From: Escherichia coli
Lineage (GTDB): Bacteria > Pseudomonadota > Gammaproteobacteria > Enterobacterales > Enterobacteriaceae
Direction: 5' to 3' (one strand)
DNA: 64,000 nucleotides
NCBI RefSeq assembly: GCF_003790525.1
Contig: NZ_CP033635.1
The position numbers are program-made. Positions 3,001 through 6,000 of the stretch are shown here, piece after piece; position 1 is the first letter of the stretch; every line of letters starts with the position of its first letter.

Positions 3001-6000
3001 GTCGTGTAAAGGTATACGGTTGCCACGGGGGACTCCGGGGCGCTCAGAACAGGTGATCCCACAGTGTGACCAGCAGGTGGATAATGCGGGCCCGGGCTTT
3101 ACGCAGAAGCTGTAACATCCAGGCCGGAAAACTGAACCGGGCAGCGGCGTCGTCAAAACTTTTCCCGATGGCGTCACCAAAAGTCTGTTGTGCGTGTTTC
3201 TGGGCCTGTTCAGAGCGGTTTTCTCCCCGGATATGTGAATAAACCGCGCTGGTTGCCTGTGGTGGCAGTGCGTGGATCATCAGTGACACCAGTGCCTGAA
3301 GATTCCAGCCGACAGGCGCTGCAACGGAGAGTACCGGAAATGATGACGGGAACAGGGTGGCCACCCGGGCTGTTACTGTCGCCAGTGAGAGTTCCTGCTG
3401 ACGGGACGGGCATTTTTCTGTGTCGTTCCATTCTTCAGCAGGAAACACGCGATCGGCATGGCTGAGAACAAACAGAAAACGCGAGGGATCGGCATCTTCA
3501 TTCAGTAAAAACTGATGCATGGCGATGTCGGCAGCATACGCACGTTCATCAGCCCGCAGGATCCAGATAATCAGATCCAGTTCCGGTAGCAACTGATGAT
3601 AAAGTGCCCGGTATTCCTGATCATGCTGCGGTGTCTCACCAATGCCGGGCAGATCGACCAGCGTCATTCTGCGTTCACCGATCTGCAGGGTGAGGTGATG
3701 AGCCTGGCGGGTGCAGCCGTTCAGGGGATGCGTGGCGCAGATATGGGACTGAAAAATGGCATTACACAGGCTGCTTTTGCCTGTGCCGGATTTACCCATA
3801 ATGCCAATCACGGGCTCGTAATGAATAACACCGTGGAGATGTTCAAGGATTTTCTGGCGAATTTCTTCAGGAAGAAACGTCAGATATGATTTCACTTGTG
3901 CAGAGAGGGAAGAATGGCTGAATGACATACCGGTATCCTGTTGATTTCGCTGAACCGGATCACACTAATCCGGTTTATCATTCAGGTAATATGGACGTGA
4001 AAAAATCTGGAGTGACAAAGTGTGGAGGGAAGAGATGACGGCACAACAAAGTGATGCGCTGCGTGAGATTGCTAATAAAGCCAGAGTTACCACCATTCTT
4101 CAGAGTAAGGCCTGGAAAGATACCCAGCGAATACTGAAGCGCAGCGGACTTGTGTGCAGAGAACGATCAGAGCCGTTTGATCCGGAGAAACATTTTGACT
4201 GTTATACGGTGCGTTATCTGTACCTGCTTAACATAATAGCACTTGAGCTAAGGCCAGATACAAGGCCAGATACACGGATTAAGGTTGAGGTGGGCCACTG
4301 GTATCGTATGACGGGTAAACGTTTATCACTTAATGTCCCGCCTTTTATGCTGATTCCGCGTAATATCCGGAGAAAAGTGGATGGATTCAGGCAATCAGAA
4401 GGTAAAACAACAAAAAAACCGACTCAACCGTTCACGGGCAGTTTGTATGAGGTTTTGAGCGGGGATATTGATTCGGCTAAGCTGGACGCATGGATTGCTG
4501 GACTACCTCTGAGTGCGCTGGAGGGAGCGAAGGAAATCCCAATCATGGGATTTAGTCCATGGGTTGTAGCCAAATCTGTTCGTCAGTCTGCATCCCCGAC
4601 GTTTGAACTTTTTTATCAGGAGTATCAGTCCCTGGTATTAAAATCTGTTTTTAAACTGGAACCGGGATTTGAACAACTTTTAACAAGACTAAGCTTTATA
4701 AAACAATCAATCCTCAGCAAACAACAATACAGGGTTAAATCGCAGTTACTGGAGAGACTGGGGAATGTGTTGTTTTTCACGTTGCTTTATAACCAGGGAT
4801 GTCCGGGAGAGTTTATAAATACACTTGTGGAAAAGGAGGACATTTATCTGAAAGCGTCCCCCGGGGAAGAAAAGGTGAAAGCACACCAGAAGCTGATTAA
4901 CTACATTGAAGAGTTCTGCAACGAAATGACGGAAAAGTACCTGATGCCTGCAGCCGGGAGACACTACAAAAAGAGGAAAACTGCCAGGAGTGGAAGTAGT
5001 GAAAGTTAATCCAGTCTACCGTTCAGAATCAGTTGTTCCAGAATAGCCTGCTGTGTTGTTTTCCTCGCTCTGGTCAGTCTGTCCAGAGCGCTTTTTGCGG
5101 ACGGTGATATCTTTACGTTAATTTGTACCCGTTTATCTTTTTTCCCGTCGATAAACTGTTTTCTGAAAGCGTCGTGCATTCTTCTGTAAAAATGTTCTTC
5201 AGCGCAGATCCCGACATGAAACTCTTTGTCGTTGTACTGGCATGGTATATCTCCGGGATACAGTATTTTAAGCAATGCTAAGATGGCAATGCGTTTCTCT
5301 TCGTTATTGACGGGGCAAAACCAGGTTAAATGTGACTCGGGAATACGAATGTTAATATATTTCCATGCCCACTCGAGTTGTTCCGGATTTTTTTTAAGCC
5401 ATGTAGCCTGGTTTTTGTTCCCGATTTCCTTCCAGTTTTTATAGATGGCATCAACGAGATTTTTAGTAAAAGCTTCCGTTTCTATCTGTGCTACACTATC
5501 AATCCATCGCCTGATGATCTCCAGCCGAATCTCATGGGTTGAGGATGACAGCTTACTGATGCAAACAGATTCTTCAGAAGTGGGAAGTTGCATGGTAAGT
5601 TCATAGTAACTGCTCCCTGACACTTTCATATCCTTTATCACCAGACAAAACCAGAATGCTGCAACTTTATCCTTAAGCCATTCAGGTAAATGCCTATCCT
5701 GCACATGACGCGATTTTAACGAATTCAGATTTTCTCCATTTTTCGATAAAAATTGATTCTGTTTATCTCGCCCCTGATCGTTAATCCGTAATGTCATCTG
5801 TTTTCTCCTTCTTTCCGGGTTATCTGTTATTAAACCCCATATCAATAAAACGAGTGCAATGCAATAAAATTTACAAATAAAAGCATTTTGTGTTCACAGA
5901 ACGATTATTCACCAGTTATTAATGCAATAAAATATTCCTGAACTATTCCTTGATTAGGAAAAACATGCTATCAACTATGGTTCATGTGCCCCTTGTGGAG

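What the first reader, a model, noticed from the sequence alone, without database searches (positions are those of the whole stretch)
4035..5797. Unrecognised convergent gene pair in the variable cargo slot of a CP4-like island module
Between the YeeP-type GTPase gene and the Gp2-like genes, where related islands carry variable cargo (from memory: Ag43 in CP4-44, the RnlAB region in CP4-57), this window has two AT-rich genes I cannot place in any family. They are convergent and their 3' ends overlap by 4 bp. The minus-strand gene ends in an RHH-like DNA-binding tail, which suggests a regulator or antitoxin-like component fused to an unknown ~220-aa domain. Neither looks like IS debris.
Basis: partly seen in the sequence, partly recalled or inferred. 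Interest (0 to 1): 0.65.

Follow-up and report, generated by a model that had tools for sequence, protein, structure and literature searches.

The report
Conserved island gene pair beside GTPase
Two real but unnamed genes next to the island's GTPase gene are a recurring backbone part of a family of enterobacterial genomic islands, not one-off cargo; one probably encodes a DNA-binding regulator, and there is no evidence of a defence or toxin function.

Summary
A 324-aa gene (A, 4035-5009 +) and a 263-aa gene (B, 5006-5797 -) converge and share a TTAA stop overlap. Both are AT-rich and match no Pfam, NCBIfam, PHROG, PADLOC or PDB family. Both evolve under purifying selection.

The "variable cargo" reading is only partly right. 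Homologues of A and B sit in the same arrangement beside the YeeP/YfjP-type GTPase gene in E. coli, Citrobacter, Serratia and Hafnia. A's 5' third is found in 741 of 5,426 complete E. coli genomes, including CFT073.

B is always co-oriented with the GTPase gene. In ten other species a B homologue lies directly upstream of it. Sister E. coli islands carry a distant A homologue with an added N-terminal zinc ribbon and no B.

B's tail is weakly but repeatedly ribbon-helix-helix-like, with marginal MatP resemblance. Phased GAATAG repeats upstream of B track its tail type. The alleles are very old (B dS 1-3, against about 0.2 for the GTPase).

Best reading: an island regulatory or maintenance module, with B the DNA binder and A its partner. 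A's biochemistry remains unknown. Defence and toxin-antitoxin readings lack support but are not excluded.

The parts
3044..3928 (-). YeeP/YfjP-type GTPase gene (294 aa), first gene of the GTPase - DUF932 - antirestriction - RadC - CbtA/YeeU block
   Evidence: ORF. Annotated as a GTPase family protein in the identical RefSeq copy. Pfam MMR_HSR1 on homologues.
3953..3975 (.). Palindrome or hairpin AACCGGAT-N7-ATCCGGTT in the divergent GTPase/A intergenic region, followed by a -10-like GGTAATATGG at 3985-3994
   Evidence: Alignment of the intergenic region from E. coli, Citrobacter, Serratia and Hafnia. Both arms change together: CCTGGC/GCCAGG in Citrobacter and TCGGA/TCCGA in Hafnia. It folds as the centroid hairpin on either strand. 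It is also present in islands that lack B, so it is not a B-specific site.
4035..5009 (+). Gene A: 324-aa basic (pI 9.55), mostly helical soluble protein of an undescribed family, transcribed divergently from the GTPase gene
   Evidence: There is no family hit. Distant full-length homologues exist across Enterobacterales. dN/dS is 0.36-0.64. Conserved motifs are AWxNTQRxLKRSG, IRRKVDxFxQ, GSLY and LFFxLLY.
4251..4274 (+). 12-nt tandem duplication inside A (AGGCCAGATACA x2, encoding RPDT-RPDT), particular to this allele
   Evidence: Sequence. It appears as a 4-aa insertion relative to most other alleles in the alignment.
5006..5009 (.). TTAA shared by the two stop codons (TAA on each strand)
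   Evidence: It is conserved in 11 of 11 E. coli alleles, even where both flanking coding ends are only about 30% identical.
5006..5797 (-). Gene B: 263-aa basic (pI 9.25) protein with a Trp-rich all-helical N-terminal region and a C-terminal RHH-like tail, always on the same strand as the GTPase gene
   Evidence: The synteny table is. dN/dS is 0.27-0.56. AF2 model: pLDDT 62, all-helical.
5021..5122 (-). Putative ribbon-helix-helix DNA-binding tail of B (residues 226-259, RVQINVKISPSAKSALDRLTRARKTTQQAILEQLIL)
   Evidence: Pfam RHH_1 i-E 0.065. PF10723 RepB-RCR_reg is recorded on five other alleles. Profile against PDB gives CopG at E 0.16-0.18 and MatP at E 0.09. NCBIfam RepA/CopB-type gives E 2e-4 on the L016 homologue. 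The model shows an extended segment followed by two helices, 232-245 and 249-258.
5932..5948 (-). Two GAATA(G/T) direct repeats exactly 11 bp apart, about 140-150 bp upstream of B's ATG; candidate operator
   Evidence: There are 2-4 copies at 11-12 bp spacing in every allele with RHH tail type a or b, and none in type c alleles. The background density is about 0.5 per kb per strand.
5858..5933 (.). 13-nt direct repeat AATGCAATAAAAT (5858-5870 and 5921-5933) in B's promoter region
   Evidence: 2 matches in the 64-kb window against 0.13 expected, with 0 of 100 shuffles reaching 2.
5798..7522 (.). 1.7-kb AT-rich (GC 0.377) non-coding gap between B and the Gp2-like gene, with iteron-like degenerate repeats at 6436-6630
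   Evidence: It is conserved at 72-89% nt identity in other E. coli islands, including those without B. No Rfam family matches.
7523..8254 (+). Inovirus-Gp2 / YagK-YfjJ family gene (243 aa), the other border of the region
   Evidence: ORF. RefSeq annotation of the identical copy. Pfam YagK_YfjJ_C and REP_ORF2-G2P on homologues.

Best explanation
A and B are backbone genes of a family of chromosomal islands in Enterobacterales (CP4-57/CP4-44-like). They are not exchangeable cargo.

B is most likely a sequence-specific ribbon-helix-helix DNA-binding protein. It probably represses its own promoter through phased GAATAG repeats. Because it is always co-oriented with and upstream of the GTPase gene, it probably also helps control the long GTPase - DUF932 - antirestriction - RadC - toxin/antitoxin block.

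A is a basic helical protein of unknown biochemistry, inserted in the opposite orientation between B and the GTPase gene. In sister islands the A-type protein carries its own N-terminal zinc ribbon and B is absent. This suggests that B supplies in trans the nucleic-acid targeting that the short A form lacks.

The tail-to-tail arrangement has no conserved terminator. Transcription from B's promoter would therefore run antisense through A towards the GTPase operon, so the two promoters could oppose each other.

Shown: gene reality, synteny, orientation rules, allelic structure, the repeats. Inferred: DNA binding by B, autoregulation, an A-B partnership, the transcriptional opposition.
For: Synteny
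- A/B homologues sit next to the GTPase gene in the same order and orientation in E. coli alleles, Citrobacter, Serratia and Hafnia. Partner homology was confirmed by HMM at E 1e-19 to 1e-43.
- The scan seeded on the GTPase gave 40 Enterobacterales loci. Ten have B alone directly upstream and co-directional. Four have zinc-ribbon A alone. Two have short A. B is on the GTPase strand in every case.
- Every complete short-A locus also has B (one short-A locus, L014, ends at a contig edge). The seven zinc-ribbon-A loci never have B.

Prevalence
- A's 5' region is in 741 of 5,426 complete E. coli genomes.
- It is almost absent from plasmids (2 of 72,556) and absent from 50,697 phage records.

RHH evidence
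- Convergent weak hits from RHH_1, RepB-RCR_reg, CopG structures, the RepA/CopB NCBIfam model and MatP.
- Strand-helix-helix prediction in the model.

Operator-like repeats
- GAATA(G/T) repeats at exact 11-bp phasing upstream of B, present with RHH tail types a and b and absent with type c.
- A 13-nt repeat pair.

Selection
- dN/dS below 1 for both genes.
Against: - No hit to any RHH model reaches significance for the window protein itself.
- The A model is poor (pLDDT 45), so nothing is known of A's activity.
- The conserved palindrome in the GTPase/A intergenic region is also present in islands without B. Control of the GTPase operon by B is therefore not indicated by that site.
- Co-variation of A's C-terminal type with B type is complete only for the deepest split and breaks down within the other clade. 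It cannot be separated from physical linkage.
- 24 of the 40 species-level GTPase loci have neither A nor B, so the GTPase does not need them.
- No expression or binding data exist.
Confidence: 0.5

Rival explanations
1. The pair is an anti-phage defence system or a toxin-antitoxin-like module carried as cargo. B would be an RHH antitoxin or regulator and A the effector.
For: - In CP4-57 the same interval between yfjJ and yfjP holds the defence genes abpAB and rnlAB.
- B has an RHH-like tail, as many antitoxins do.
- The region is AT-rich and highly allelic within E. coli. Deep allelic diversity is common in conflict genes.
- Short A never occurs without B.
Against: - PADLOC gives no hit for the window proteins or for nine divergent relatives.
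- There is no toxin or nuclease family hit in Pfam, NCBIfam, PHROGs or PDB.
- The genes are convergent rather than co-transcribed, both are large, and the RHH is C-terminal.
- The occupant of the slot is the same two families in four genera rather than unrelated systems.
- B homologues occur alone, in an operon-like position with the GTPase gene, in ten species.
- A homologues occur without B.
- A has few invariant polar residues that would suggest a catalytic site.
Confidence: 0.12
2. A and B are establishment or anti-defence genes of a mobilisable island. They would be expressed early with the neighbouring antirestriction, DUF932 and RadC genes after transfer, as in a plasmid leading region, with B acting as the shut-off repressor.
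For: - The pair sits between a putative origin region and an operon holding an antirestriction protein, DUF932, RadC and a CbtA/YeeU pair. The origin region is an AT-rich 1.7-kb gap with iteron-like repeats plus a Gp2/HUH-type initiator gene.
- B is co-oriented with that operon in every locus.
- That such gene sets typify plasmid leading regions is from my own knowledge, not tested here.
Against: - No transfer function, oriT or relaxase was demonstrated here.
- A and B are virtually absent from plasmids.
- Nothing links A to any known anti-defence family.
- This reading overlaps the best explanation for B and differs mainly in the role given to A.
Confidence: 0.15
3. B is a MatP- or ParG-like site-binding protein that organises or segregates the excised island DNA or controls its replication. 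It would work with A as adaptor and the adjacent GTPase as the NTPase.
For: - The best PDB match of the B family profile is MatP. It covers MatP's four-helix bundle plus RHH (residues 10-129, E 0.09), including a shared W-x-W-x-Y-L motif.
- hhalign against E. coli MatP gives probability 52%, E 1.4e-4, over 110 columns.
- Other alleles hit the replication-regulator RHH families RepB-RCR_reg and RepA/CopB.
- B and the GTPase gene are adjacent and co-directional in ten species.
- Repeat arrays lie nearby.
Against: - The MatP similarity is marginal. It is not seen by Pfam in any of 17 family members or by the fold searches.
- B lacks MatP's C-terminal coiled coil.
- The GTPase is a TRAFAC MMR_HSR1-type protein, not a known partition NTPase.
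- Autonomous replication of these islands was not shown.
- 24 of the 40 GTPase loci lack B.
Confidence: 0.12
4. The two ORFs are decaying or non-functional remnants kept only by linkage to the island.
For: - dN/dS is higher than for the neighbouring GTPase gene: 0.27-0.64 against 0.11-0.23.
- The DNA is AT-rich and therefore likely silenced. That is an inference; H-NS binding was not tested.
- K-12 islands have lost the genes.
Against: - Full-length intact ORFs with good ribosome-binding sites occur in all 11 E. coli alleles and in four other genera, despite synonymous divergence up to saturation.
- dN/dS is clearly below 1.
- The stop-overlap geometry is conserved.
- The genes are annotated intact in hundreds of genomes.
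Confidence: 0.03

Closest known systems
CopG / RepB-RCR_reg / CopB(RepA) ribbon-helix-helix repressors of plasmids
   Same: B's last ~45 residues have the strand-helix-helix pattern. They give repeated weak hits to these families. Phased short direct repeats lie upstream of the gene, as expected for an autoregulating RHH protein.
   Different: Those proteins are 45-85 aa and consist of the RHH alone. B carries about 215 additional N-terminal residues with no known relative. No hit reaches family thresholds.
MatP (macrodomain Ter protein, E. coli)
   Same: The alignment spans MatP's helical bundle plus RHH and shares a W-x-W-x-Y-L motif. The order of helical domain, basic linker and RHH is the same.
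   Different: The statistics are marginal (E 0.09; hhalign probability 52%). There is no Pfam MatP hit and no structural hit. B lacks the C-terminal coiled coil and has an extra N-terminal region. It is an island gene with many alleles rather than a single-copy core gene.
Type II toxin-antitoxin pairs with RHH antitoxins (ParD, CcdA and RelB types)
   Same: A two-gene unit in a mobile element. One partner has an RHH-like motif. The short A form is never found without B.
   Different: The genes are convergent, not an operon. The RHH is at the C-terminus. Both proteins are several times larger than typical pairs. There is no toxin homology. B and A relatives each occur alone.
Cargo of the yfjJ-yfjP interval of K-12 CP4-57 (AbpAB, YfjM, RnlAB)
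   Same: The same interval of a related island, between a YagK/YfjJ-family gene and the GTPase gene.
   Different: A and B have no sequence relationship to those genes. The CP4-57 genes are lineage-specific, whereas A/B recur across genera.
Zinc-ribbon-bearing A homologues (376-417 aa) of sister islands
   Same: They share the A core (hmmsearch E 1e-8 to 1e-15) and hold the same divergent position next to a 94-95% identical GTPase gene.
   Different: They carry an N-terminal CxxxxC...LCxxHY zinc loop, of the kind found in HNH-endonuclease PHROGs. They have no B partner. They are equally uncharacterised.

Membership tests
Ribbon-helix-helix (CopG/Arc/MetJ) superfamily - B tail | Significant match to an RHH profile (Pfam RHH_1 or a related family) | tested here: inconclusive
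   RHH_1 i-E 0.065 for the window protein. The best among 17 family members is 8.9e-3, and 5.4e-3 for RepB-RCR_reg. PF10723 is precomputed on five other alleles. CopG structures score E 0.16-0.18 with the family profile.
Ribbon-helix-helix (CopG/Arc/MetJ) superfamily - B tail | A beta-strand followed by two helices within about 45 residues | tested here: met
   The AF2 model has an extended segment at about 222-231, then helices 232-245 and 249-258 at pLDDT 72-80. The conserved RVQI(N/S)xxIS segment precedes the helices.
Ribbon-helix-helix (CopG/Arc/MetJ) superfamily - B tail | Dimerisation and binding to repeated operator sub-sites | not testable with these tools
   Only indirect evidence: GAATA(G/T) repeats at 11-bp phasing upstream of B that track the RHH tail type.
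MatP family | Match to the MatP N-terminal and RHH domains | tested here: inconclusive
   Profile against PDB gives E 0.09 over MatP residues 10-129. hhalign gives probability 52%. None of the 17 members hits Pfam MatP at E <= 0.1.
MatP family | C-terminal coiled coil for tetramerisation | tested here: not met
   B ends 4-5 residues after the second RHH helix.
Type II toxin-antitoxin system | Two co-directional, co-transcribed small genes | tested here: not met
   The genes are convergent with overlapping stops and encode 324 and 263 aa.
Type II toxin-antitoxin system | Homology of one partner to a toxin family | tested here: not met
   A has no hit in Pfam, NCBIfam, PADLOC, PHROGs or PDB, as a single sequence or as a profile.
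Type II toxin-antitoxin system | Toxicity of one partner neutralised by the other | not testable with these tools
   This needs expression experiments.
Known anti-phage defence systems (PADLOC-DB v2) | Match of at least one component to a defence-system model | tested here: not met
   Zero families at E <= 1 for A and B and at E <= 0.1 for nine divergent relatives. Systems described after 2023 are not covered.
Variable cargo of a genomic-island hotspot | Unrelated gene sets at the same position in closely related islands | tested here: inconclusive
   Among islands with GTPases of at least 90% identity, the position holds short A + B (11 loci) or a zinc-ribbon A homologue (3 loci). These are the same superfamily, not unrelated cargo. 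The more distant CP4-57 holds AbpAB and RnlAB, and CP4-6 holds PerR.
Island backbone (core) gene | Same family, position and orientation relative to a conserved neighbour across genera | tested here: met
   E. coli, Citrobacter, Serratia and Hafnia. The orientation rules hold in every locus.

The most novel reading that the evidence does not exclude
B, A and the adjacent YeeP-type GTPase form a previously undescribed island-borne system. An allele-specific MatP-like or RHH DNA binder and its partner would set up a convergent-transcription switch, or a GTPase-driven DNA-handling or segregation device. This would decide when the island's antirestriction and toxin block is expressed or how the excised element is maintained. 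The very old, recombining alleles would then provide mutual orthogonality between the up to three A-bearing islands (up to six GTPase copies) that co-reside in one E. coli genome.
Probability: 0.15. Interest if true: 0.7.

Novelty: new variant of a known kind. Interest (0 to 1): 0.4.

Why it matters
These islands are among the commonest accessory elements of E. coli and its relatives. They carry adhesins, iron uptake genes, resistance genes and defence genes. Yet the control of their conserved GTPase - DUF932 - antirestriction - RadC - CbtA block is unknown.

Two undescribed protein families are consistently attached to that block. They are present in about 14% of complete E. coli genomes, including CFT073. 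One is a likely DNA binder with candidate operators. This gives a concrete, testable entry point into how the islands are regulated or maintained.

The result also corrects the map of where the exchangeable cargo sits. That helps anyone mining these islands for defence systems. It is not in itself a surprising discovery.

Tried and rejected
- Single-sequence and profile searches of A and B against Pfam, NCBIfam, PHROGs, PADLOC and PDB sequences gave nothing significant.
- The AF2 model of A, from a 15-sequence alignment, is too poor to use (pLDDT 45), so no fold search was run on it.
- A and B are not related to each other (hhalign probability 0.2%).
The GTPase was used as the seed instead.
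- K-12 CP4-57, CP4-6 and CP4-44 contain no A or B homologue, so no K-12 gene name applies.
- Rfam found no RNA family in 1-14000.
- The promoter and terminator scan was no better than shuffles.
- A terminator-like hairpin for A inside B's coding region (5066-5090) is present only in alleles with this RHH type. It was dropped as a general feature.
- Co-variation of A's C-terminus with B as evidence of physical interaction was rejected as inconclusive, because linkage explains it equally well.
- Literature searches on the GTPase names, the island gene set and the RefSeq accessions found nothing about these two genes.
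Full report
**1. What is there**

The window holds an ORF at 4020-5009 (+) and one at 5006-5845 (-). RefSeq uses the same starts in an identical copy, where the products are "hypothetical protein" WP_032354114.1 (324 aa, here A) and WP_000175256.1 (263 aa, here B).

The genes converge, and their stop codons share TTAA at 5006-5009. GC is 0.447 for A and 0.412 for B, against 0.534 for the neighbouring GTPase gene. Both proteins are basic (pI 9.55 and 9.25) and have no hydrophobic segment long enough to span a membrane.

**2. No known family**

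A and B give no meaningful hit in PADLOC, NCBIfam, PHROGs or Pfam. Family profiles give none against PDB sequences.

The only recurrent signal is a weak ribbon-helix-helix (RHH) match in B's last ~45 residues:
- RHH_1 at i-E 0.065.
- PF10723 RepB-RCR_reg recorded on five other alleles.
- CopG structures at E 0.16-0.18 with a broad family profile.
- The RepA/CopB-type NCBIfam model at E 2e-4 on one distant homologue.

The AF2 model of B (pLDDT 62) shows an extended segment followed by two helices at that place. I take the RHH tail as likely but not proven. The AF2 model of A is unusable (pLDDT 45). Fold searches with the B model found nothing.

**3. The genes are real and old**

Word-seeded searches found only Escherichia relatives, down to 50% identity for A and 24% for B. 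An exhaustive HMMER search with the A profile found full-length relatives at 22-32% identity. They come from Citrobacter, Hafnia, Serratia, Lelliottia and Enterobacter, and all are unnamed.

Between E. coli alleles, dN/dS is 0.36-0.64 for A and 0.27-0.56 for B. It is 0.11-0.23 for the GTPase gene. Both genes therefore encode proteins under purifying selection.

**4. The pair is not variable cargo**

In Citrobacter amalonaticus, Serratia and Hafnia alvei the A homologue lies about 50-100 bp from the GTPase gene and is divergently transcribed. It is followed by a convergent gene of 259-320 aa. That gene is a B homologue (hmmsearch E 2e-42, 1e-19 and 2e-43).

I then seeded a species-level scan on the GTPase rather than on A or B and searched the 40 Enterobacterales loci with HMMs:

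| Neighbour of the GTPase gene | Loci |
|---|---|
| B homologue (304-383 aa) directly upstream, co-directional, no A | 10 |
| Distant A homologue with an N-terminal zinc ribbon, no B | 4 |
| Short A form (one with B; the other at a contig end) | 2 |
| Neither | 24 |

Three E. coli islands with GTPases 94-95% identical to this one carry zinc-ribbon A homologues of 376 or 407 aa at the same divergent position, again without B. The zinc loop, CxxxxC...LCxxHY, is of the kind seen in HNH-endonuclease PHROGs.

Three rules hold in every locus examined:
- B is on the same strand as the GTPase gene.
- Short A lies between them on the opposite strand.
- Short A comes with B, while zinc-ribbon A comes without B.

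The arrangement here therefore reads as a B-GTPase unit with an inverted A gene set between them.

**5. Comparison with K-12**

CP4-57, CP4-6 and CP4-44 contain no A or B homologue. In CP4-57 the interval between yfjJ and yfjP holds abpBA, yfjM and rnlAB, so that lineage did replace this position with defence genes. In CP4-6 a LysR-type gene (perR) precedes ykfA.

Ag43 in CP4-44 lies on the other side of yeeP, between the GTPase gene and the RadC-type gene. That interval corresponds here to 1909-3043, between the GTPase and DUF932 genes. It does differ greatly between islands.

**6. Distribution**

- The exact allele pair is in 62 of 5,426 complete E. coli genomes.
- A's conserved 5' 606 nt is in 741 genomes, including CFT073 and ST131 and ST95 strains.
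- A close full-length GTPase gene is in 1,866 genomes.
- A is in 2 and B in 1 of 72,556 plasmids. Neither is in any of 50,697 phage records.

**7. Allelic structure**

Eleven E. coli loci were compared:

| Segment | Amino-acid identity between alleles |
|---|---|
| GTPase | 90-100% |
| A, first 150 residues | 58-99% |
| A, last 125 residues | three types, 30-37% between the extremes |
| B, RHH tail | three types, 24-34% between a and c |
| B, N-terminal region | down to 20% |

B's synonymous divergence between types is 1.0-3.0, against about 0.2 for the adjacent GTPase gene. These are ancient alleles exchanged by recombination, not fast evolution in place. The TTAA stop overlap is kept in all eleven loci.

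A's C-terminal type follows B's type across the deepest split. It re-assorts within the other clade, so this cannot be told apart from linkage.

**8. Candidate binding sites**

About 120-195 bp upstream of B's start, alleles with RHH tail type a or b carry two to four GAATA(G/T) repeats at 11-12 bp spacing, mostly exactly 11. Type c alleles carry none. In the window the repeats are at 5932-5948. A 13-nt repeat pair lies at 5858 and 5921, with 2 matches against 0.13 expected. This is what an autoregulating RHH protein with allele-specific operators would look like. It is an inference.

The GTPase/A intergenic region holds a palindrome or hairpin (3953-3975) whose arms change together in Citrobacter and Hafnia. 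It is followed by a conserved -10-like GGTAATATGG. It is also present where B is absent, so it is not a B-specific site.

**9. MatP lead**

The broad B profile's best PDB match is MatP. The match covers MatP's helical bundle and RHH and shares a W-x-W-x-Y-L motif (E 0.09). hhalign gives probability 52%. Pfam sees no MatP in any of the 17 members. B lacks MatP's coiled coil. This is a lead only.

**10. Interpretation**

Best explanation (confidence about 0.5): A and B are backbone genes of this island family. B is an RHH DNA binder that controls its own promoter and probably the co-oriented GTPase - antirestriction block. A is its partner, and B may supply the nucleic-acid targeting that zinc-ribbon A forms carry themselves. 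Convergent transcription without a conserved terminator could make the two promoters antagonistic.

Rivals:
- Defence or TA cargo (0.12). No model hit, wrong gene geometry, and each partner occurs alone.
- Establishment or anti-defence genes of a mobilisable island (0.15).
- A MatP/ParG-like maintenance device with the GTPase (0.12).
- Decay (0.03). Contradicted.

**11. Verdict**

The "cargo/defence" framing is mostly wrong, and the regulator idea is plausible. Two undescribed protein families are attached to a very common island backbone. This is moderately interesting as an entry point to how these islands are controlled, but it is not a striking anomaly.

Noticed in passing
window 3953-3975 (and 3985-3994): Palindrome or hairpin AACCGGAT-N7-ATCCGGTT between the GTPase and A genes. 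Its arms change together in Citrobacter (CCTGGC/GCCAGG) and Hafnia (TCGGA/TCCGA). It is followed by a conserved GGTAATATGG. It could be an operator or a leader-RNA hairpin of the GTPase mRNA. It is present even in islands without B.
   Followed up: partly
window 5798-7522, repeats at 6436-6630: A 1.7-kb non-coding AT-rich gap (GC 0.377) between B and the Gp2-like gene. It is conserved at 72-89% nt identity in other E. coli islands. It contains a cluster of degenerate 24-27-nt iteron-like repeats (TAAGTGTTxTACACxT...). It may be an origin or transfer-origin region for the Gp2/HUH-type protein. No Rfam hit.
   Followed up: partly
window 1909-3043 (ORFs 2009-2242 and 2248-2925, minus strand): The interval between the GTPase and DUF932 genes looks like the truly exchangeable slot of these islands. 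Here it holds a 225-aa protein with a signal-peptide-like N-terminus and a DUF905-type 77-aa ORF. Other islands add an HTH/WYL regulator or hold unrelated genes of 431-486 aa. Ag43 of CP4-44 sits in this slot.
   Followed up: partly
L065:8070-9200, L066:7986-9209, L012:6722-7888, L013:6451-7704: Distant A homologues of 376-417 aa with an N-terminal CxxxxC...LCxxHY zinc loop, of the type found in HNH-endonuclease families. They occupy the A position in sister islands and never have a B partner.
   Followed up: yes
window 4251-4274: A perfect 12-nt tandem duplication (AGGCCAGATACA x2) inside gene A adds RPDT to this allele relative to most others.
   Followed up: no
window 5066-5090: A hairpin followed by a T-run (dG -16.5 kcal/mol, z -1.9) lies 57 nt past A's stop, inside B's RHH-coding region. 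It could terminate A's transcript. It is present only in alleles with this RHH type, not in others.
   Followed up: partly
L065:11874-12578: A TIR-domain gene lies between two Gp2/YagK-YfjJ genes in a sister island. It suggests defence-type cargo sits beyond the first Gp2 gene rather than at the A/B position.
   Followed up: no
window 8581-10237 and 9252-9488: Further YagK/YfjJ-type ORFs and an AlpA-like 78-aa HTH ORF follow the first Gp2-like gene. So the island has several paralogous Gp2-type genes in a row, as in the Citrobacter and Serratia loci.
   Followed up: no
L001:33759-41951 (identical A/B copy in strain PK-F-10122): In that genome the same island continues into fecIR, a truncated fecA, a class 1 integron remnant with sul1, and ter genes. 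The A/B-bearing backbone therefore carries resistance and iron-uptake cargo further along.
   Followed up: no
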